From: Candidatus Tayloriibacteriota bacterium
GTDB lineage: Bacteria; Patescibacteriota; Minisyncoccia; Phycocordibacterales; PALSA-1337
Assembly (NCBI GenBank): GCA_052034805.1
Contig: JBPOID010000001.1
Coordinates: 28,184-92,183 of the forward strand
Reading direction: 5' to 3'
DNA: 64,000 bases
Part shown: positions 38,256 through 45,418 of the stretch, one piece after another
Numbering within the stretch: position 1 is the first letter of the stretch
Layout: each line of letters starts with the position of its first letter
Notes under the pieces: generated by a model
Seen by the model: the letters and a program-made list of their open reading frames with translations, nothing else
The model's database searches: none
Told to the model about the DNA's origin: nothing
Position numbers and translations under genes: made by a program

Positions 38256-40193
38256 GTGAAAAACAATAAAAGAAACGATAAAATAATAGGTAAAATAAGG
38301 ACTATAAGAAAAGGCCTCGGATTCGTAGAAGATCCAAATGATGAGGAAAACGATATAGTAATAAAAGAAGACAAACTCAATTTCGCATTAAACAATGACA
38401 TTGTTGAAGTCATTTTCCATGGAAAAGGTGAAGACAAAAATGGTGAAGTTATAAAAATAATAGAAAGATCCAGAGAAATCTTCGTAGGTACAGTAGAAAT
38501 ACGCGATGGCAAAACAGGAGTAATACCTGATGATAAAAAACTTTATATAGACTTCATGTTAAATGATGAAGAAGCAAAAAAAGTAAAAGCTCATGATAAA
38601 GTCCAAATAAAAATAGGAAAATGGATTGATAGCAATAAAAATCCAGAAGGAAATATAATAAAAGTTATAGGTGAAAAAGGAAATAATAATGTAGAAATGG
38701 AATCTATAGTATTAGAAAAAGGATTTGAAATAAATTTCCCAGATGATGTAGAAAAAGAAGCAAATAAAATAGAGAAAAATAAAATAAAAGATATTGAAAA
38801 TGAAATACCTAAAAGAAGAGATTTCAGAAAAACTTTGACTTTCACTATTGATCCATTTGATGCAAAGGATTTCGACGATGCTATATCATACAAAGACCTA
38901 GGTAATGGAGAATACGAAATAGGCGTTCATATAGCCGATGTATCACATTATGTAATAGAAAATAGCGCATTAGATAAAGAAGGCTTCAAACGTGGCTGTT
39001 CTATATATCTAGTAGATCGTACTATACCTATGCTTCCAGAAATACTTTCTAATGATGTATGTAGTCTAAACCCAAATGAAGACAAACTCACCTTCTCTGC
39101 AGTTTTTGTCATGAATGATAAAGCACAAATAAAAGAAAGATGGTTCGGCAAAACAATAATAAACTCTACACATAGATTTACTTATGAAAATGCACAGGAA
39201 TCTCTTAATTCTAAAACAGGCAAATATTATAATGAATTAAAAAAGCTCAATGAAATTGCAAAAGTTCTACAAAAAGAGAAATTCAATAAAGGTGCAATAG
39301 AATTCGAACAAGAAGAAATAAAATTCAAATTGGATCAGAATGGTAAACCCATAGGAGTATATAAAAAAGAAAGATTAGATACACATAAATTAGTAGAAGA
39401 ATATATGTTACTTGCAAACCGCGAAGTGGCGAAACATATCTTTGATTCAATAAAGAAAAAAGGTAAAAAAGATACCGGTTCAATATATAGAATTCATGAT
39501 ATACCAGATCAAGAAAAAATGATGGATTTATCTATTTTCGTAAAAGCTTTAGGATACAATCTAAAAGTAAAAGATGGCAAAGCAACAGCTCATGATATAA
39601 AGAGTTTGTTAAAACAAGTAAAAGGAACCGTGCATGAAGCACTCATATCAACAGCAGTTATTAGATCAATGCAAAAAGCAGTATATTCTACAAAGAATAT
39701 CGGGCATTTCGGTTTGGCATTTGATTATTATACCCATTTCACATCCCCTATTAGACGTTATCCAGATTTACTTATACAAAGAATATTACAAAGACATTTA
39801 CATCATGAACCATTCGGAGATAGAGAAATAGTAGAATTCCAGAAAATAGCAGAGAGATCTACAGAAAGAGAAATAGATGCCGCCGACGCAGAAAGAGCTT
39901 CAAAGAAATTGAAACAAGTAGAATACATGAGCGATAAAATAGGTATGGAATTCCAAGGAACAATATCAGGAGTAACAGAATGGGGCCTATATGTAGAAGA
40001 ATTAGAAACAAAATCAGAAGGAATGATAAAGATAAGAGATTTGGGCGATGATTTCTATAATTTCAATAAAAAAACTTATTCAATAAAAGGAGAAAAAACC
40101 GGAAAGACATTTACCTTAGGTAGTCCAATAAAGTTCAAGGTTATAGGTGCTGATTTGGATAAGAAAGTATTAGATTTCAGTTTGGTGGAGTAA
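38256..40193 (+). CDS. rnr: Ribonuclease R (RNB family)
   Basis: Cold-shock-like N-terminus, RNB core (RRDFRKTLTFTIDPFDAKDFDDA, NIGHFGLA...YTHFTSPIRRYPDL), C-terminal S1. Confidence 0.85.
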   Translation: MKNNKRNDKIIGKIRTIRKGLGFVEDPNDEENDIVIKEDKLNFALNNDIVEVIFHGKGEDKNGEVIKIIERSREIFVGTVEIRDGKTGVIPDDKKLYIDFMLNDEEAKKVKAHDKVQIKIGKWIDSNKNPEGNIIKVIGEKGNNNVEMESIVLEKGFEINFPDDVEKEANKIEKNKIKDIENEIPKRRDFRKTLTFTIDPFDAKDFDDAISYKDLGNGEYEIGVHIADVSHYVIENSALDKEGFKRGCSIYLVDRTIPMLPEILSNDVCSLNPNEDKLTFSAVFVMNDKAQIKERWFGKTIINSTHRFTYENAQESLNSKTGKYYNELKKLNEIAKVLQKEKFNKGAIEFEQEEIKFKLDQNGKPIGVYKKERLDTHKLVEEYMLLANREVAKHIFDSIKKKGKKDTGSIYRIHDIPDQEKMMDLSIFVKALGYNLKVKDGKATAHDIKSLLKQVKGTVHEALISTAVIRSMQKAVYSTKNIGHFGLAFDYYTHFTSPIRRYPDLLIQRILQRHLHHEPFGDREIVEFQKIAERSTEREIDAADAERASKKLKQVEYMSDKIGMEFQGTISGVTEWGLYVEELETKSEGMIKIRDLGDDFYNFNKKTYSIKGEKTGKTFTLGSPIKFKVIGADLDKKVLDFSLVE

Positions 40194-40214
40194 AGCAAAT
40201 TAATACTAACTAGT

Positions 40215-40652
40215 ATGTTTACCTTTAGTCAATATCCTTATAAAAAAATATCCAATATATTAATGAAAGCCAAGAAAAGCCGGGAGCGTAAAGAGATAAT
40301 TCAGGCTCTTATTTCATTTACTGATATTTTATACAAAACTATTTCCAATATTTCATCTTATAAACCATTAATATTATTCACAATTGATCCTAATATGATT
40401 TTTCCAGGAAAACATAGAGAATTATCTACTGAAAAACTCGAAACAGAAATAACATCATCTGGCTATATTGATCAATTATTAGAAATAATTGGTATTTATA
40501 ATCATAGAGAAATATCAGATTCTATATCAGACGCTATATCAGACTTGCATGCAGATATGTCTCGTGGGATTAAAGATATTTCTGAGAAAAAAGAAATATT
40601 AATTAACTCTATTAATAATTTAAAAAAGGTTTTGCAGGATTTAGTATATTAA
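40215..40652 (+). CDS. Hypothetical protein (host-like AT-rich)
   Basis: ORF only. No recognisable domain. Confidence 0.35.
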   Translation: MFTFSQYPYKKISNILMKAKKSRERKEIIQALISFTDILYKTISNISSYKPLILFTIDPNMIFPGKHRELSTEKLETEITSSGYIDQLLEIIGIYNHREISDSISDAISDLHADMSRGIKDISEKKEILINSINNLKKVLQDLVY

Positions 40653-40660
40653 TTTTTAAG

Positions 40661-40677
40661 CTCTATAACACTACCAT
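40661..40677 (+). repeat. Island direct repeat copy R1 (CTCTATAACACTACCAT, followed by CTAAACCCTAAA)
   Basis: Core 17-mer shared with copies at 41331, 41721 and 42146. Confidence 0.75.
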
Positions 40678-40784
40678 CCTCTAAACCCTAAAAAATCAAC
40701 AAATTTAATATCCGCAAGAATCGTCCCCATTTTTTATTTTCAATCTCATCTTATTCATAAGCATATAAAGATGGTTTTATATAA

Positions 40785-40824
40785 CAAGTAAAATTAAACC
40801 GCACTTTGCATAAGCATTGTGCGG
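40785..40824 (-). terminator. Rho-independent terminator downstream of island ORF A
   Basis: Minus-strand hairpin CCGCAC-14-GTGCGG followed by TTTAATTTT. A second hairpin GTGACAG/TGTCAC lies at 40834-40859. Confidence 0.45.
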
Positions 40825-40953
40825 TCTCAAAATGTGACAGTTTGTTCTCGAGATGTCACCCATCTCAACGTACTGCATACGAGGCTCACGCTTTTAAAAA
40901 GGTGACAACAATGGAGCTTCTGAATTGAAGGCGGCTCCATCCTTCATTCGTCA

Positions 40954-41214
40954 CTATCCTGCGATAGCTATGAACGTGCCTTGCTCAATAACATGCTTTG
41001 GGTCCACAAATGGTCCGTACCCCTCGATGTAAAGATGGTAAAAACCAATCGAATCCCGAGAGCAGGCCAAGACAGGGCTTTTGAACCCAAAGAGGAGTAA
41101 CGATATTTCCTCATAGGATGCAACATTCATTTTCTCACGTCTCAATTCCTCCAAGATTTCTCCAAGAGGTTTTGACTTATTGACGTGGACGAAAGTGTGT
41201 TTGCTGAGGCTCAT
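40954..41214 (-). CDS. Island ORF A, 86-aa hypothetical protein (MSLSKHTFVHVNKSKPLGEILEELRRE...)
   Basis: ATG at 41214 with AAAGGA SD 5 nt upstream. The track's longer form starts at a TTG. G+C-rich. Confidence 0.5.
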   Translation of the reverse strand: MSLSKHTFVHVNKSKPLGEILEELRREKMNVASYEEISLLLFGFKSPVLACSRDSIGFYHLYIEGYGPFVDPKHVIEQGTFIAIAG

Positions 41215-41290
41215 AAAGGTCCTTTTTCTGGTGCTCAAAGGCGCACCTGCTTAAAGCCTTGAAATTCAATGATCTAATTACTTATATCAT

Positions 41291-41299
41291 TATATCACA
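41291..41299 (-). promoter_or_regulatory. Extended -10 (TGATATAAT) for island ORF A
   Basis: Minus-strand TGATATAAT (plus-strand sequence ATTATATCA at 41291-41299). About 70-nt leader with a hairpin GGTGC/GCACC. Confidence 0.35.
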
Positions 41300-41330
41300 C
41301 TTACAGTATAATGTACAGTTTAAACCCAAA

Positions 41331-41347
41331 CTCTATAACACCACCAT
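41331..41347 (+). repeat. Island direct repeat copy R2 (CTCTATAACACCACCAT, preceded by TAAACCCAAA)
   Basis: Lies in the divergent A/B promoter region, about 60 nt upstream of the ORF B start codon. Confidence 0.8.
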
Positions 41348-41358
41348 TTCCTCAATCA

Positions 41359-41387
41359 TTGACTAATGACTATTATAATGCTATTCT
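41359..41387 (+). promoter_or_regulatory. Putative promoter of island ORF B (TTGACT-17-TATTCT)
   Basis: TTGACT at 41359-41364. A TATAAT at 41374-41379 is only 9 nt away, too close to pair with it, so TATTCT at 41382-41387 is proposed as the -10. Confidence 0.3.
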
Positions 41388-41407
41388 GATTTCAGAAAGG
41401 AAGTGCT

Positions 41408-41659
41408 ATGGCCACACAAATACCGGAGCAATTTATTTCCAAACTCAGTGAATTCATCTCGAGTCTGGACCATCAGACTCAGGAGATCCTTTTGTACTAT
41501 TACGGCGCAGATCAATCATGGAAAAAGAGAACTCTACAACAAGTCGAAGACAGATTTCATGTGGGAACAAGTATCGTCGGTAAGGTTGTTGCAGAACAAA
41601 TCTCTGAATTTCGACAACTGCATAATTTCGACTATGCCACTTGCATGATCCTCATGTAG
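41408..41659 (+). CDS. Island ORF B, 83-aa sigma-70 region-4 / YlxM-like HTH protein
   Basis: QEILLYYYGADQSWKKRTLQQVEDRFHVGTSIVGKVVAEQISEF aligns with sigma r4.2 [18 protein letters not shown] and the YlxM pattern LYY.DDLSL.EIAEEFDVSRQAV. SD AAAGGAAG. Confidence 0.55.
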   Translation: MATQIPEQFISKLSEFISSLDHQTQEILLYYYGADQSWKKRTLQQVEDRFHVGTSIVGKVVAEQISEFRQLHNFDYATCMILM

Positions 41660-41672
41660 ACTGATCTCTAAG

Positions 41673-41708
41673 CGGCGCTGCTATTAAATTTGCAGTGCCG
41701 TTTTTTGT
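41673..41708 (+). terminator. Rho-independent terminator of ORF B
   Basis: CGGCGCTGC-9-GCAGTGCCG hairpin plus TTTTTT. Confidence 0.6.
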
Positions 41709-41720
41709 TTACAATTTAAA

Positions 41721-41737
41721 CTCTATCTCACCACCAT
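41721..41737 (+). repeat. Island direct repeat copy R3 (CTCTATCTCACCACCAT)
   Basis: Sits between the convergent terminators of ORF B and ORF C. Confidence 0.8.
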
Positions 41738-41744
41738 CTTCTCC

Positions 41745-41775
41745 CAACAGAAAACCCACCTCTCATGCATGGGTT
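41745..41775 (-). terminator. Rho-independent terminator of ORF C
   Basis: Minus-strand AACCCA-11-TGGGTT hairpin followed by TTTTCTGTT. Confidence 0.45.
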
Positions 41776-41796
41776 CTCCGTGCTTGAGATAGTGGG

Positions 41797-42075
41797 TTAG
41801 ATTCGGACAAACAATTTCTGGTAGAGCTCATCAAACTGCCCCACCGGATGTTCTGACAAAAACTGTTCGAAGTAGTTCTGCGCATCTGGATGTAAAACCG
41901 AACTGTCTCTGGTTCCCAAATTACAGTTGATTTTCCCGTTGCTCGCAGCCGTTACCATTGCAACTCGTCGGCTTTGCACAACTGCTTGACGGTTGGTCAA
42001 GATGTCAGCCAGAACCACAAGTGCGACACGCTCAGCTTCTGTCAATGTCTGCCATAACTGTTCAAGTTTTTTCAT
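41797..42075 (-). CDS. Island ORF C, 92-aa hypothetical protein (MKKLEQLWQTLTEAERVALVVLADIL...)
   Basis: ATG with AAAGGA SD 9 nt upstream. Promoter TTGACA-17-TAGACT. No recognised domain. Confidence 0.5.
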   Translation of the reverse strand: MKKLEQLWQTLTEAERVALVVLADILTNRQAVVQSRRVAMVTAASNGKINCNLGTRDSSVLHPDAQNYFEQFLSEHPVGQFDELYQKLFVRI

Positions 42076-42100
42076 TGTGCTAAATCCTTTCTTACTTTAT

Positions 42101-42129
42101 AGTCTAATACATTTTAGTTCTTGTGTCAA
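42101..42129 (-). promoter_or_regulatory. sigma70-type promoter TTGACA-17-TAGACT for ORF C
   Basis: Minus-strand TTGACA (plus 42124-42129) and TAGACT (plus 42101-42106). Confidence 0.45.
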
Positions 42130-42145
42130 GTACATAAACCCTAAA

Positions 42146-42159
42146 CTTTATCTCACCAC
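42146..42159 (+). repeat. Island direct repeat copy R4 (CTTTATCTCACCAC, preceded by AAACCCTAAA)
   Basis: Lies exactly between the divergent -35 boxes of P_C (42124-42129) and P_D (42169-42174). Confidence 0.75.
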
Positions 42160-42168
42160 TTTTTACAC

Positions 42169-42198
42169 TTGACATAAGTTATTAAGTCATGTTATGAT
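42169..42198 (+). promoter_or_regulatory. Near-consensus extended -10 promoter TTGACA-18-TGTTATGAT
   Basis: TTGACA at 42169-42174, TGnTATGAT at 42190-42198. Confidence 0.55.
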
Positions 42199-42204
42199 AC
42201 TTAA

Positions 42205-42392
42205 CAGATTGAGTAGCCGTTGACGATACATACGATTCAACAGATGTCGGATTCAAGATGCAGCCGGAAATACTACAAGTATTATCGGAAGTCAATCATT
42301 GACGACAGGATCGTTGATATTAGGCTAAGGCCGAAAAGTCCAAGAATGGGTACTCTTCTAGCCACAATCAGAAATGATTGTGGCATTTTTTT
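42205..42392 (+). ncRNA. Candidate ~185-nt small RNA (island unit D). The track ORF 42220..42405 is probably not translated.
   Basis: Strong promoter and a strong terminator (9-bp stem GCCACAATC/GATTGTGGC at 42361-42384 plus T7) bracket about 185 nt. There is no SD before the TTG or ATG start, and the ORF reads through the terminator hairpin. Internal hairpin CCGGAAATAC-5-GTATTATCGG. Confidence 0.4.
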
Positions 42393-42431
42393 GTTCGAAC
42401 CTTAAAGTTTATGGTACTACTATACTCTAAC

Positions 42432-42460
42432 TTGACGATATTAGTAATACTTGTTATGAT
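42432..42460 (+). promoter_or_regulatory. Second copy of the extended -10 promoter (TTGACG-17-TGTTATGAT)
   Basis: Near-duplicate of the 42169-42198 promoter (ACTTGAC[A/G]...TGTTATGAT). Confidence 0.5.
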
Positions 42461-42466
42461 TATCCG

Positions 42467-42563
42467 CATGAAGATCTTTAATCAAGTGAATTAATAGAAC
42501 TACAAGGCCACGGCAATCATTTTCAAGCGCTCATTTCTTCGGATTTGAGCGCCTTTATTTTTA
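42467..42563 (+). ncRNA. Candidate ~95-nt small RNA (island unit 2)
   Basis: Promoter at 42432-42460, terminator hairpin GCGCTCA-13-TGAGCGC (42527-42552) plus CTTTATTTTT. Longest ORF 8 aa. Contains GCCACGGCAATCATTTT, similar to one arm of the unit-D terminator. Confidence 0.35.
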
Positions 42564-42640
42564 TAGACTACAATTTAATAAAAAAGAACGCCGTACCCGA
42601 AGGTCGTGCATTCTGTTTGAAAGTTTTGAGGATTAAATCC

Positions 42641-43060
42641 TCATGATATCGCCTCTTCGATTGTTTTTTTCCAGTGAAGAGCGAATTGCTCTTCATCCTG
42701 GGCCTCCCCACTCCGTCCACAGAAAGGGGGATACACATCAATCGCCTTAATCTTATGGTATAGTCCATGGTCCAGACCTCTATACGGAGTGACCACAATG
42801 ACGCCATTCAGGTTTTCTGGAAGTCCCGTGTCTTCACAACATGGACAAGCGGTTAAGACAAAGAGTGTTCTGGGATCACAGGCATTTTTTGATGCCACTT
42901 CTTGTACCACCCTATGAATGATTGGTGTCATCTTTAAGAGACTCTTTGCAAGTTCGTGAGATGCCCATTCAAAAGGACTTGAATATCCAAAGATAATTTT
43001 CATAATATAATTTGGTTGAGTGTGGTTTGAAAGTTCATAATCTGCATGACATGATGTCAT
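42641..43060 (-). CDS. Island ORF E, Cys-rich 120-139-aa protein (start at 43060 or at the internal MKIIFGY at 43003)
   Basis: MKIIFGYSSPFEW ... LTACPCCEDTG ... PPFCGRSGE. No SD at either start. Promoter TTGACA-17-TAATAT. Weak resemblance to Rossmann-like N-terminal motifs (Ndt/DNPH1-like [KT]I[IY]FG, or DsrE-like); not secure. Confidence 0.5.
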   Translation of the reverse strand: MTSCHADYELSNHTQPNYIMKIIFGYSSPFEWASHELAKSLLKMTPIIHRVVQEVASKNACDPRTLFVLTACPCCEDTGLPENLNGVIVVTPYRGLDHGLYHKIKAIDVYPPFCGRSGEAQDEEQFALHWKKTIEEAIS

Positions 43061-43127
43061 ACAAGTCGATTACAATCTTTCTTCCAAACTCAACGTATTT
43101 ACTTTCAAAGAACTCTACTATATAGAT

Positions 43128-43156
43128 ATATTATCATACTATATGATATATGTCAA
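43128..43156 (-). promoter_or_regulatory. sigma70-type promoter TTGACA-17-TAATAT for ORF E
   Basis: Minus-strand TTGACA (plus 43151-43156) and TAATAT (plus 43128-43133). Same architecture as the 35641-35669 promoter. Confidence 0.45.
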
Positions 43157-43192
43157 GTGTATTTGTATAGTGTATAGATAATGTATACCCCC

Positions 43193-45418
43193 CTACTTCG
43201 CCACCTTAACCGCCTCATCAAACTGTATTGATAATAACTTCGAAGCCCCATCAGAACCCATAGTGACTCCATATAGAACGCCCGCACGTGACATTGTTTC
43301 TCTATTATGAGTTATAAGTATTAATTGTGAATATTTTGATAAATTACTTATCATATCTCCATATTTTCTAGAATTAGCTTCATCGAGAGCTGCATCTGTT
43401 TCGTCTAATATGATAAATGGTGGAGGATTAACTTGGGAAATAGCAAAAAGAAGAGCAATGGATGTCAAAGCTCTTTCTCCTCCAGATAACATCATAAGTC
43501 CTTTAACTTTCTTTCTTGGTAGATTTACATTTATTTCTAGACCTTCCCTGCCTTCTTCCTCTTCTTCTATTTCTTCTTCTATATTTGTATCATCATTCAT
43601 TGCCAATACTCCTTCTAGATCTGTATCTGATTTCTTCTTTCTTTTCTTTTCTAGAACTACATTCAAAGATGCGGTACCACCTCCGAACATCAATGAAAAG
43701 AATTCTTGGAATTGTGCATTTATCTTTAATATACCTTCTTTGAATTCTATATTTATTCTGAGATCTAGATCTGCTATTAGATTATTTAGTGATTGTTTTG
43801 AATTTTCTAAATCAGCTAATTCCCTAGACAAGAAAGCGTCTCTTTCTTGTACTTCTCTATATTCTTTCATAATATCTCCGCTATTGCCTATTCCAGAATC
43901 CTCTAATCTTACTTTTATTTTTTCTATATTCTTCTTTCTTTCTGTTTGTCTATCTCTATTTTCACTTTCTATTATTTCTAAATCCTTATAATCAACAGCT
44001 TCTCTACCTACCACTAGATATGCTTCATGTAATTCTCTTTTGAATGATTCCTCATCTATGAGCAATCTTTCTTCTCTGGTCTTTATGCCATTTAATATTC
44101 CACGTAATTCATTTTGTCTTGCTATTATTCTGAATATATTTTTCTCAGCATCTCTATCGCTATCCTTCTCTCTTTCTATTCTATGTCTAAGCTCATTGTA
44201 TTCTATATTTTTATCTTTTTCTTTATTTTCTATCTCTTTTATTTTCAAATCTAATTTGCTTTTCTTATCCTTTAATATAGAAATTTCTCTTTCTAATTCT
44301 GCTGTATTTGTAGATATATCTTTATTTTTATGTAAAGAAATAAAATTAGATAATATTTTCTTTATCTCTAAAATACTTTCTAAAAGATTAACTTTTTCTA
44401 TTACTTGTTCTATATCTCTTAGATATACAGTTTTATTATCATCTTTATTCTGTCTATCTTTTTCTTTTTGTATAATCCTTTCCGAGCCAGATATTTCTCC
44501 TTCTATTTTGCCTAATTCATGGAAAATACTGTCTTTTTCTCTTCTTATTTCATACAAAGTCTTTTCTAAAGAAATTAATTCATCACTTTTTGCATCTCTA
44601 TTCTTTGAACTTTCTAAATTCTTTCTTGCTAAAGATATTTCATTATCTAGAGATGATAATTCTTTTATTATGGGTGATTTCTTTTCATCGATTTCTTTCT
44701 TTTCATTTTCTATATATAGTTCTTCTCTTTTGAAAAATTCTTTATAGATTTTCCTAAGCTCATTTCTTAATTCTTGGGCTTTTTCTACTTTCTCTACTTG
44801 CTTTTGTAGGAATTTCATATGAGGGGCTATTTCCCTTCTTAGAGATTCTACAGATTTCATATTTTCTTCTGTCTTTTCTAATTTTCTTTGACTTTCGGTT
44901 TTCTTGTATTGATAGATTTTCAATCCTAAAGCATCTTCTATCATTTCTCTTCTTTCACGAATATTAGTATTCAATATTCTATCTGCTTCACCCTGAGATA
45001 TAATATGATGTCCAGAAGCTCCTATATGAGCATGTGCCAGTAATTCTATTATATCCTTTAGTCTTGCTCCGCTACCGTTTATAAAATACTCATTTACATT
45101 ATCTCTATGAACTACTCTTTCTATGGTGACTTCATCGAAATCTAGATTGAGCATTCTTTTGCTATTATCAAAAGTAACCTTTACTGAGGCTCGGTTTAAT
45201 TTATTACCATCGCTACCCGCAAAGATTAGATCTTCACCCCTCTTTCCACGCATGCTCTTTATGGATTGTTCTCCAAGTACAAAACGAAATGCTTCAGCGG
45301 CATTACTTTTACCCGAACCATTTGGTCCGACTATGGCAGATATCGGTGAAGTAAAATTCAAAGAAGCCTTTTTTGCAAAAGACTTGAAACCTGTCATCTC
45401 TAGGGATTTGAGATACAT
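43193..45418 (-). CDS. smc: SMC-family ATPase, short (741 aa) and apparently hinge-less
   Basis: N-terminal FKSFA...IVGPNGSGKSNAAEAFRFVLGE, C-terminal LSGGERALTSIALLFAI...ILDETDAALD, long Lys/Glu-rich coiled coil. No Gly-rich hinge motif seen. Confidence 0.8.
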   Translation of the reverse strand: MYLKSLEMTGFKSFAKKASLNFTSPISAIVGPNGSGKSNAAEAFRFVLGEQSIKSMRGKRGEDLIFAGSDGNKLNRASVKVTFDNSKRMLNLDFDEVTIERVVHRDNVNEYFINGSGARLKDIIELLAHAHIGASGHHIISQGEADRILNTNIRERREMIEDALGLKIYQYKKTESQRKLEKTEENMKSVESLRREIAPHMKFLQKQVEKVEKAQELRNELRKIYKEFFKREELYIENEKKEIDEKKSPIIKELSSLDNEISLARKNLESSKNRDAKSDELISLEKTLYEIRREKDSIFHELGKIEGEISGSERIIQKEKDRQNKDDNKTVYLRDIEQVIEKVNLLESILEIKKILSNFISLHKNKDISTNTAELEREISILKDKKSKLDLKIKEIENKEKDKNIEYNELRHRIEREKDSDRDAEKNIFRIIARQNELRGILNGIKTREERLLIDEESFKRELHEAYLVVGREAVDYKDLEIIESENRDRQTERKKNIEKIKVRLEDSGIGNSGDIMKEYREVQERDAFLSRELADLENSKQSLNNLIADLDLRINIEFKEGILKINAQFQEFFSLMFGGGTASLNVVLEKKRKKKSDTDLEGVLAMNDDTNIEEEIEEEEEGREGLEINVNLPRKKVKGLMMLSGGERALTSIALLFAISQVNPPPFIILDETDAALDEANSRKYGDMISNLSKYSQLILITHNRETMSRAGVLYGVTMGSDGASKLLSIQFDEAVKVAK

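What the first reader, a model, noticed from the sequence alone, without database searches (positions are those of the whole stretch)
42169..42392. Strongly expressed ~185-nt non-coding RNA candidate (unit D) instead of the annotated 61-aa ORF
A near-consensus extended -10 promoter (TTGACA-18-TGTTATGAT) and a 9-bp-stem plus U7 terminator bracket about 185 nt. The only ORF (42220..42405) starts at TTG 13 nt after the predicted TSS, or at ATG 42244. Neither start has an SD, and the ORF runs through the terminator hairpin. These are typical signs of a spurious ORF over an sRNA. The RNA contains an internal hairpin and direct TTGACGA repeats. It is divergent from ORF C, with repeat R4 between the two promoters, so it could be a regulatory or antitoxin-type RNA of the module.
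Basis: partly seen in the sequence, partly recalled or inferred. Interest (0 to 1): 0.6.

Follow-up and report, generated by a model that had tools for sequence, protein, structure and literature searches.

The report
Orphan small-RNA cassette in CPR array
The flagged stretch is most likely a stand-alone gene for a ~185-nt hairpin-shaped RNA, not a protein; it sits as one tiny self-contained cassette in an array of cassettes separated by copies of the end of the ychF gene, an arrangement that recurs across Patescibacteria (CPR), but the RNA has no detectable relative and its function is unknown.

Summary
A TTGACA-18-TGtTATGAT promoter (11/12, best in 5 kb) and a 10-bp-stem/U7 terminator bracket ~188 nt (42205-42392). 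The only ORF has no Shine-Dalgarno sequence, and its stop codon lies beyond the terminator U-tract. It has no protein homologue and was not called as a gene in independent assemblies. The + strand folds into one 53-bp imperfect rod plus the terminator (z -5.9; rod alone -3.7, against -1.4 for the opposite strand).

The "module" reading is wrong. Repeat R4 is one of five same-strand copies of a ~34-nt motif that, read on the other strand, is the 3' end of ychF (…DGDVIEFK*). That motif hit 30 GTDB genomes (29 named Patescibacteria) and 45 metagenome contigs. There it forms arrays of 0.1-0.7 kb cassettes downstream of ychF, each usually with its own promoter and terminator. The same cassette occurs at different array positions in different lineages. 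D is one ORF-less cassette, and several other structured ORF-less cassettes exist elsewhere.

D itself is an orphan, so covariation and function could not be tested. No complementarity or linkage to ORF C or F was found. Verdict: a plausible novel sRNA gene carried by a mobile cassette; the antitoxin idea is unsupported.

The parts
It is the left border of cassette D and lies between the C and D promoters.
   Evidence: PWM score 11.4, against a maximum of 7.1 in 10 shuffles of the window. Only 5 sites in 64 kb score >=0, all on the + strand and all in the island.
42169..42198 (+). Sigma-70-type promoter: TTGACA, 18 nt, TG-extended TATGAT.
   Evidence: 11/12 match, top hit in the scan. The -35 starts a few nt after the att copy. 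That placement recurs at 15 of 121 att copies against 34 of 2420 random positions.
42205..42392 (+). Predicted ~185-188-nt transcript (unit D RNA).
   Evidence: Bracketed by the promoter and terminator. MFE -61 kcal/mol, z -5.93, centroid equal to MFE. No Rfam family reaches threshold.
42206..42359 (+). Long imperfect hairpin (rod): 56 base pairs in total, of which 53 form the rod (5 of them G.U) and 3 form a mini-hairpin at 42323-42332. Apical loop ACA at 42275-42277. The 5' and 3' ends are paired.
   Evidence: + strand -44.3 kcal/mol (z -3.7) against - strand -35.3 (z -1.4). There are 5 G.U pairs and no A-C appositions.
42361..42392 (+). Intrinsic terminator: 10-bp stem, GAAA loop, A+U7.
   Evidence: The weak Spot 42 Rfam hit (22 bits against a gathering score of 80) is essentially this hairpin.
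42220..42405 (+). 61-aa ORF, judged spurious.
   Evidence: No SD. The stop codon is downstream of the U-tract. No homologue and no self hit. No Pfam, PHROG or PADLOC family. Not called in L001/L002.
42394..42427 (+). att-like repeat m5: the right border of cassette D and the left border of unit E.
   Evidence: PWM score 10.6. It has the same 7-nt deletion as m4. The following promoter matches D's promoter over 16 of 20 nt (family D5).

Best explanation
Unit D is an ORF-less micro-cassette of about 260 bp, running from att copy m4 to att copy m5, whose only cargo is a small-RNA gene.

Shown from the sequence:
- A near-consensus extended -10 promoter abuts the att copy.
- An intrinsic terminator ends the unit just before the next att copy.
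- The ~185-nt RNA between them folds, on the + strand only, into one irregular 53-bp rod with paired 5' and 3' ends, followed by the terminator hairpin.
- The overlapping ORF cannot be translated normally.

Shown by comparison:
- The att copies are duplicates of the 3' end of ychF.
- In Patescibacteria such copies delimit arrays of 0.1-0.7 kb cassettes downstream of ychF.
- Many cassettes start with a promoter at the same distance from the att copy and end with a terminator.
- Individual cassettes are found at different array positions in distant lineages.
- Some cassettes are ORF-less and structured, like D.

Inferred:
- The cassettes are moved by site-specific recombination at the ychF-end motif. 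A tyrosine recombinase sits beside the motif in 22 other loci, but none is present in this window.
- D is transcribed by the host RNA polymerase as a discrete, stable RNA.
- The RNA is almost entirely double-stranded, with no long single-stranded seed. I therefore think it more likely acts through its shape (a protein-binding or decoy RNA, or an RNase III substrate) than as a linear antisense regulator of its neighbours. This last step is weak, about 0.3 on its own.
For: - Promoter and terminator.
- Structure, its strand asymmetry, and the G.U against A-C count.
- Island coding regions have folding z near 0, while D reaches -3.8 on the + strand.
- No SD, whereas cassette genes have GAAAGGA.
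- No protein homologue or self hit.
- Not called as a gene.
- att motif equals the ychF 3' end, and arrays lie next to ychF.
- m4 and m5 score above the shuffle maximum.
- Promoter placement next to att is enriched about 9-fold.
- Other ORF-less structured cassettes exist (L006/L019, L024/L021, L030, L029).
- The same cassette sits at different array positions (L024 cassette 1 and L021 cassette 4; L006 cassette 1 and L019 cassette 2).
- Precedent for sRNA-encoding and promoter-bearing ORF-less integron cassettes: PMC6557892.
Against: - No homologue of D was found by any route, so there is no conservation or covariation evidence: blastn and a single-sequence covariance model over 76 att-bearing loci (~550 kb), and degenerate pattern scans of metagenome and viral contigs.
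- No expression data are available.
- m4 and m5 are degenerate att copies.
- The array in this window is not next to ychF; none is present in the 64 kb. No recombinase is present either.
- The structure z-score is not unique in the island. Other non-coding stretches score as low.
- With only 5 G.U pairs, the strand asymmetry is modest (about P = 0.03 on a coin-flip null, my estimate).
- No target or partner was identified.
Confidence: 0.55

Rival explanations
1. Inert relic. The unit keeps a cassette promoter and terminator, but its body is a foldback (an inverted duplication or MITE-like palindrome) or a decayed gene. Any RNA made has no function.
For: D is a singleton with no relatives. Its att copies are the two most degenerate of the five. 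Only 5 of 56 pairs are G.U, so the DNA is close to a palindrome and the opposite strand also folds to some extent. Other non-coding parts of the island fold as well.
Against: The two arms differ by many indels and bulges yet keep pairing. All 5 transition-type imperfections favour the + strand RNA, with none favouring the other strand. The promoter and terminator are near-consensus and intact. A decayed ORF would not be expected to form a transcript-long hairpin.
Confidence: 0.2
2. One reading: an antisense, antitoxin or cis-regulatory RNA acting on a neighbouring gene (C, divergent; or E/F, downstream).
For: D is divergent from C and shares the inter-promoter region. In L006 a C homologue also has a divergent ORF-less unit upstream. 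TA cassettes are common in integron arrays (PMC6557892).
Against: - Duplex energies of D with the 5' regions of A, B, C and F, and with E, are within shuffle background. That test was crude.
- Exact complementarity elsewhere in the window is at chance level.
- C homologues occur with a different, unrelated unit (L006) or with none (L005).
- C (92 aa) and F (120 aa, a soluble CPCC family) do not look like type I toxins.
- D has no tandem repeats of the ToxI kind.
- An att copy separates D from each neighbour.
Confidence: 0.08
3. DNA-level element. The long inverted repeat works as folded single-stranded DNA or a cruciform, for example as a recombination substrate like an integron attC or as a replication or transfer signal. 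Transcription would then be incidental.
For: The stretch is a near-palindromic 150-bp inverted repeat inside a recombination-site-flanked unit. The recombinase-linked platform in other loci also carries hairpins beside the att motif.
Against: Other cassettes (A, B, C, and most in other loci) have no such hairpin, so it is not a general cassette feature. The unit has a dedicated strong promoter and terminator that exactly bracket the hairpin. The G.U asymmetry favours RNA.
Confidence: 0.07
4. A real small basic protein of 53-61 aa, translated without an SD.
For: An uninterrupted ORF exists. It has a weak, sub-threshold DUF1064 match (E = 0.066).
Against: There is no SD, although neighbouring cassette genes have strong ones. 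The stop codon lies beyond the terminator U-tract. No homologue or self hit in 5.8 billion clusters. No family hit. Gene callers skipped it.
Confidence: 0.04

Closest known systems
ORF-less integron gene cassettes, including the integron-encoded sRNA-Xcc1 of Xanthomonas (as summarised in PMC6557892)
   Same: A very small unit with no ORF in an array of units separated by a repeated recombination site. Such cassettes are known to carry promoters or to encode trans-acting sRNAs. Arrays mix coding and non-coding cassettes.
   Different: The repeated site here is not an attC. It has no R''-L''/L'-R' palindrome and is instead a direct copy of the ychF 3' coding end. No IntI is present. The cassettes here usually carry their own promoter and terminator, whereas integron cassettes are mostly promoter-less. 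There is no sequence or Rfam similarity to sRNA-Xcc1.
Integrative elements that target the 3' end of a conserved gene and leave tandem partial target copies, such as tRNA-targeting islands and the tycheposons of Prochlorococcus (bioRxiv 10.1101/2020.12.28.424599; only the abstract was seen, and the rest is my own knowledge)
   Same: Same-orientation partial copies of a conserved gene's 3' end separate variable cargo downstream of that gene. A tyrosine recombinase is associated with the same motif in some genomes.
   Different: The target is ychF, not a tRNA. The units are 0.1-0.7 kb single-gene or single-RNA cassettes rather than multi-kb elements. In this window the array is detached from ychF.
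6S RNA
   Same: About 185 nt, an irregular rod with the 5' and 3' ends paired, and a strong sigma-70 promoter.
   Different: No Rfam 6S model reaches E <= 10. There is no two-sided central bubble, only small bulges plus a one-sided 16-nt loop. It ends at an intrinsic terminator and sits in a mobile cassette rather than a conserved host locus.
Type I antitoxin sRNAs encoded divergently from their toxin (istR/tisB, ohsC/shoB type; my own knowledge)
   Same: A small RNA gene transcribed divergently from a small ORF, with closely spaced promoters.
   Different: No complementarity to the C mRNA was detected. C is 92 aa and not a hydrophobic peptide. C occurs without D elsewhere.

Membership tests
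Independent bacterial sRNA gene (own promoter plus intrinsic terminator, non-coding) | Sigma-70-type promoter and Rho-independent terminator bracketing 50-300 nt | tested here: met
   11/12 promoter with TG extension; 10-bp stem plus U7.
Independent bacterial sRNA gene (own promoter plus intrinsic terminator, non-coding) | No translatable ORF | tested here: met
   No SD, stop codon outside the transcript, no homologue.
Independent bacterial sRNA gene (own promoter plus intrinsic terminator, non-coding) | Discrete transcript detected | not testable with these tools
   No transcriptome data available.
Independent bacterial sRNA gene (own promoter plus intrinsic terminator, non-coding) | Conservation with structure-preserving (compensatory) changes | tested here: inconclusive
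   No homologue found in 76 related loci or in pattern scans, so covariation cannot be assessed.
6S RNA (Rfam RF00013 and relatives) | Match to the covariance model; central bubble flanked by closing and terminal stems | tested here: not met
   No 6S hit at E <= 10. The fold lacks a two-sided central bubble.
Spot 42 (RF00021) | Score at or above the gathering threshold of 80 bits | tested here: not met
   22.1 bits, E = 0.32. The alignment is carried by the terminator hairpin.
Type I toxin-antitoxin (antitoxin RNA) | Extended complementarity to the mRNA of an adjacent small hydrophobic toxin | tested here: not met
   Duplex energies within shuffle background (a crude test). Neighbours C and F are not hydrophobic peptides.
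Type III toxin-antitoxin (ToxI-like antitoxin RNA) | Tandem array of short repeats upstream of, and co-oriented with, the toxin gene | tested here: not met
   TRF finds no tandem repeat in 42169-42392. F is convergent.
Integron gene cassette | attC site (imperfect palindrome with R/L boxes) at the cassette end, and an IntI integrase platform | tested here: not met
   The repeated site is a non-palindromic copy of the ychF 3' end. No integrase is present in the window.
ychF-3'-end cassette array of Patescibacteria (defined here) | Flanked on both sides by same-orientation copies of the ~34-nt ychF-end motif | tested here: met
   m4 scores 11.4 and m5 scores 10.6, above the shuffle maximum of 7.1. 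Both are on the same strand as m1-m3.
ychF-3'-end cassette array of Patescibacteria (defined here) | Array lies directly downstream of ychF | tested here: not met
   No ychF in the 64-kb window. The SMC stop codon occupies that position. About 30 of 76 other loci do have ychF adjacent.
Small protein-coding gene | Ribosome-binding site, in-transcript stop codon, homologues | tested here: not met

The most novel reading that the evidence does not exclude
Patescibacteria carry an integron-like system that has not been described. The last ~34 nt of ychF serve as the recombination site. Arrays of 0.1-0.7 kb self-expressed cassettes (own promoter, own terminator) accumulate downstream of ychF and are exchanged between distant CPR lineages, probably by a tyrosine recombinase that sits beside the same motif together with a conserved structured ~130-nt element. 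A sizeable share of the cassettes, unit D among them, carry structured small RNAs rather than proteins, so RNAs would be traded as mobile cargo in these reduced-genome symbionts.
Probability: 0.4. Interest if true: 0.75.

Novelty: new member of a known kind. Interest (0 to 1): 0.45.

Why it matters
On its own, D is one more candidate bacterial sRNA with no relatives, which is of modest value. Its setting is the more interesting part. It appears to be an RNA-only cargo unit in a cassette array built on copies of the ychF 3' end, and I found that array type across Saccharibacteria, Paceibacteria and other CPR lineages. I found no description of it in three full-text literature searches. If the array is a real recombination system, it would be a route of gene and RNA exchange in organisms with tiny genomes and few known mobile-element mechanisms. 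ORF-less cassettes such as D would then be the place to look for CPR regulatory or host-interaction RNAs.

Tried and rejected
- Rfam at gathering level on the whole window, and at E <= 10 on 40600-43300. Nothing real; the Spot 42 hit is only the terminator.
- blastn of the island against phage and plasmid collections: no match.
- Protein homologue search with the 61-aa ORF: no candidate at all.
- Neighbours as handles:
  - C has only two homologues (61-64% identity), in other contexts without D.
  - F has no close homologue by word search. A full HMMER scan gave about 35 distant ~120-aa relatives whose genomic contexts could not be fetched.
  - Viral-contig scans for C and F were empty.
- A single-sequence covariance model of D against 33 and then 45 sources: only the self hit.
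Hybrid patterns found nothing in metagenome or viral contigs.
- Five viral-contig hits to the att pattern were one conserved phage gene, that is, a chance match multiplied by relatedness.
- My guess of an inverted att copy next to F's promoter was rejected by the PWM scan.
- RNA-RNA duplex tests of D and E against neighbouring mRNAs gave no signal above shuffles. The method (duplexfold with unrestricted loops) is crude (one search timed out).
- A k-mer complementarity search of D against the window was at chance level.
- Defence-system (PADLOC), Pfam and PHROG scans of the island ORFs were uninformative.
- 6S-like, retron-like (no RT), type I and type III TA readings were considered and set aside (see the membership table).

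Full report
**1. What is at the coordinates**

The window around 42169-42392 lies in a ~2.5-kb stretch (about 40655-43190) of 38-45% G+C. The surrounding genome is 25-33% G+C. On the left are an RNase R gene and a 145-aa ORF. On the right are SMC and RNase III genes.

The promoter scan gives TTGACA-18-TATGAT with a TG extension at 42169-42198. It matches 11 of 12 positions and is the best site in 40000-45000. The terminator scan gives a 10-bp stem with a GAAA loop at 42361-42384, followed by A and seven T. Promoter-like sites as a class are not enriched in the region (26 found, 20 expected), so the promoter argument rests on match quality and placement, not on counts.

The 61-aa ORF (42220-42405) is the only ORF of 60 aa or more on this strand. 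Neither its TTG nor the ATG at 42244 is preceded by an SD-like purine run. By contrast, B, C and the internal ATG of A are preceded by A(A)AGGA, and cassette genes in related loci carry GAAAGGA. The ORF reads through the terminator hairpin and stops 11 nt after the U-tract, so a terminated transcript would lack a stop codon.

The ORF has no Pfam, PHROG or PADLOC match. It has no homologue and not even a self hit among 5.8 billion protein clusters. No gene is listed there in the independent assemblies L001 and L002 of the same organism.

**2. The RNA**

The predicted transcript, 42205-42392, folds with an MFE of -61 kcal/mol (z = -5.9; no shuffle of 200 folds as well) and the centroid equals the MFE.

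- Without the terminator, the + strand gives -44.3 kcal/mol (z = -3.7). The reverse complement gives -35.3 (z = -1.4).
- The structure is a single irregular rod spanning 42206-42359. It has 53 pairs in the rod and 3 in a side mini-hairpin.
- The loops are an ACA apical loop, several 1-6-nt bulges, and a one-sided 16-nt loop. The 5' and 3' ends are paired.
- Five pairs are G.U, and no A-C apposition occurs. Every transition-type imperfection therefore favours the + strand RNA. This is a modest argument (about 0.03 on a coin-flip null, my estimate).
- In a sliding scan of the island, coding regions have z near 0 and D reaches -3.8. Other non-coding parts (40705-40920 and the terminator region 41665-41880) are as low or lower, so D is not unique.

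Rfam has nothing. The Spot 42 hit (22 bits against a gathering score of 80) is the terminator hairpin, and no 6S or other family reaches E <= 10. TRF finds no tandem repeats. The two TTGACGA copies are what chance gives.

**3. What the 'module' really is**

The 26-nt direct repeat seen four times in the island (0.05 expected) is part of a ~34-nt motif, YCTAAATCTTAAACTCTATNNCACYACCATCTTC.

An exact-pattern scan of one genome per species (596 Gb) found it in 30 loci. Of these, 29 carry Patescibacteria names (Saccharibacteria, Paceibacteria/Paceibacterota, Taylorbacteria, Roizmanbacteria) and one is an unnamed MAG. I estimate about 2 chance hits. A scan of JGI metagenome contigs added 45 loci.

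Read on the opposite strand, the motif is GAAGATGGTGGTGTTATAGAGTTTAAGATTTAGG, which translates as …EDGGVIEFKI*. The last, variant copy of each array is the genuine 3' end of ychF, for example VVKDGDVIEFKV* in L006 and VVKDGEVIEFKI* in L016. tblastn places ychF directly next to the array in about 30 of the 76 loci.

The copies are all in one orientation and 150-700 nt apart. The intervals are tiny cassettes. Most hold one small ORF with a GAAAGGA SD, and several hold no ORF.

A strong promoter-like site starts 2-9 nt after the motif at 15 of 121 distinct copies, against 34 of 2420 random positions. The left flank of the next copy is typically a terminator T-run.

Cassettes move as units:

| Cassette | First location | Second location | Similarity |
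|---|---|---|---|
| L024 cassette | next to ychF in a Saccharibacteria MAG | fourth cassette of L021 (Taylorbacteria) | 86% over 172 nt, flanks unrelated |
| L006 cassette | first cassette of L006 | second cassette of L019 | ~77% over 147 nt |

ORF C has two homologues (61-64% aa identity). Each has its own TTGACA/TGnTATAAT promoter, the same AGAAAGGAnTAGCACATG leader and the same CCCACCAnCTC…GAGATGGTGGGTTTT terminator. One follows ychF (L006) and the other follows uvrB in a high-G+C genome (L005).

In 22 loci the motif adjoins a conserved 130-nt element with three covarying hairpins, a 54-aa KGG-repeat gene and a 314-aa tyrosine recombinase. These loci are syntenic on the recombinase side and variable on the other. 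This recombinase is the obvious candidate enzyme, but that is an inference.

I found no paper describing this arrangement. The closest published analogues are ORF-less integron cassettes (PMC6557892) and elements that pile up at the 3' end of a conserved gene.

**4. Where D fits**

A position-weight matrix built from 34 motif instances finds only five sites scoring >= 0 in the whole 64-kb window on both strands. They are at 40658, 41328, 41718, 42143 and 42404, all on the + strand and all in the island. The last two (m4 at 11.4 and m5 at 10.6) exceed the maximum of ten shuffles, 7.1.

D is therefore the unit between m4 and m5: att copy, promoter, 185-nt RNA, terminator, next att copy. This is the standard cassette layout with an RNA in place of SD plus ORF.

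m4 and m5 share the same 7-nt deletion. The D and E promoters are 16/20 identical. D and the next unit E (42432-42560: promoter, ~95 nt, terminator) thus have paralogous att-promoter heads but unrelated bodies.

Other ORF-less cassettes elsewhere are also structured. Fold z-scores are -3.3 to -5.4 for L006, L024, L029 and the two L030 cassettes. RNA-only cassettes therefore seem to be a recurring class.

The array here is unusual in one respect. No ychF and no recombinase lie in the window, and the SMC stop codon sits where ychF's would be.

**5. Function**

Nothing links D to its neighbours:

- Exact complementarity to the rest of the window is at chance level.
- Duplex energies with the 5' regions of A, B, C and F, and with E, are within shuffle background, although the test was crude.
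- C occurs without D elsewhere.
- F belongs to a ~120-aa family with a CPCC motif. It has a confident AF2 model with no PDB match and no family annotation.

The type I, type III, retron and 6S readings each fail a defining feature (see the membership table).

The RNA is almost fully paired, without a long single-stranded seed. I therefore favour action through its shape (protein binding or decoy, or processing by RNase III, whose gene lies 3 kb away) over linear antisense pairing. This is inference only.

D has no detectable homologue. I tried the protein route, blastn, a covariance model over ~550 kb of att-bearing loci, and degenerate pattern scans of metagenome and viral contigs. Neither covariation nor phylogenetic distribution can support a function, and an inert relic remains a serious rival.

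**6. Verdict**

- The 'sRNA, not ORF' reading is supported at the sequence level but untested by conservation or expression.
- The 'antitoxin or regulator of the module' reading is not supported, because the module is an array of independent cassettes.
- D itself is a new, orphan member of a known kind: a bacterial sRNA gene carried as ORF-less cassette cargo.
- The ychF-end cassette arrays of Patescibacteria, met while following this finding, are the more novel item and deserve their own study.

Noticed in passing
window 40648-40681, 41318-41351, 41708-41741, 42133-42166, 42394-42427; loci L006, L014-L088: A ~34-nt motif that is the reverse complement of the ychF 3' end (…DGDVIEFK*) forms same-orientation arrays of 0.1-0.7 kb cassettes downstream of ychF. 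It was found in 30 GTDB genomes (29 named Patescibacteria) and 45 metagenome contigs. The same cassette occurs at different array positions in different lineages. No description was found in the literature searches.
   Followed up: partly
L023 4364-5678 (and 21 other loci, e.g. L027, L031, L037, L041, L060, L071, L074): A conserved platform: the att motif, then a ~130-nt element with three hairpins, a 54-aa KGG-repeat gene, and a 314-aa tyrosine recombinase (…ILGHSCIESSMIYTMMY…). In the hairpins, 7 pairs have compensatory changes, one pair is split 10:10 between C-G and U-A, and one U.G is invariant on the motif strand. The loci are syntenic on the recombinase side and variable on the other. 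The element has no Rfam match.
   Followed up: partly
window 42432-42560 (+): Unit E is a second ORF-less unit right after D. It has a TTGACG-17-TGtTATGAT promoter (10/12), ~95 nt, and a GCGCTCA…TGAGCGC hairpin plus T-run. Its att-plus-promoter head is paralogous to D's, but its body is unrelated. Its fold is only weakly better than shuffles (z -1.5). It is convergent with ORF F, with no att copy between them.
   Followed up: partly
window 40700-40950 (+): The ORF-less stretch between att copy m1 and the end of ORF A folds strongly on the + strand (z down to -5.9). About 70-80 nt of it (roughly 40716-40800) resemble sequence beside att copies in L029 and L038 (73-80% identity); a longer alignment that also spans att copy m1 reaches 149-166 nt at 67-69%. 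It shares GAATCGTC… with the recombinase-platform element.
   Followed up: partly
window 41797-42075 (-); L005 1633-2028; L006 244-646: ORF C (92 aa, no family) is a self-contained cassette with a conserved promoter, an AGAAAGGAnTAGCACATG leader and a CCCACCAnCTC…GAGATGGTGGGTTTT terminator. Only two other clusters exist in 5.8 billion, one after ychF and one after uvrB in a ~60% G+C genome.
   Followed up: yes
window 42641-43003 (-): ORF F really starts at MKIIF (120 aa). It belongs to a ~35-cluster family of ~120-aa proteins with invariant C53/P92 and a CPCC motif. It has no Pfam family. Its AlphaFold model has pLDDT 95 and no Foldseek match in the PDB (best E = 0.8).
   Followed up: partly
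L024 6396-6537; L021 7704-7842 (also L055, L066): An ORF-less cassette with a promoter, a ~100-nt RNA-like body (…CCGGAAUAAGUGGAUGUGACCUAGCUCUCCGGACUAAUAAAUAGGUCUUACC…) and a terminator is 86-88% identical between a Saccharibacteria MAG and a Taylorbacteria MAG. It has no Rfam match. A second such pair is L006 138-255 and L019 6112-6219.
   Followed up: partly
window 42084-42102: Contigs from two independent assemblies (Logan SRR34217586 and ENA ERZ27268723) end at exactly 42102, and another contig from SRR34217586 starts at 42084, inside ORF C's promoter and leader. This may mark strain-level structural variation at that point.
   Followed up: no
window 43160-43195: The array ends directly at the SMC stop codon (43193) instead of at ychF, and no ychF or recombinase is present in the 64 kb. 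How the array came to be there is unexplained.
   Followed up: no
L023 5680-6049: The ~370-nt gap upstream of the recombinase gene has no ORF of 100 aa or more (only short overlapping ORFs of 58-81 aa are listed there). It looks like a structured RNA (e.g. …GGGGACAAAGTCCATTGG…). No Rfam hit at gathering level; not examined further.
   Followed up: no
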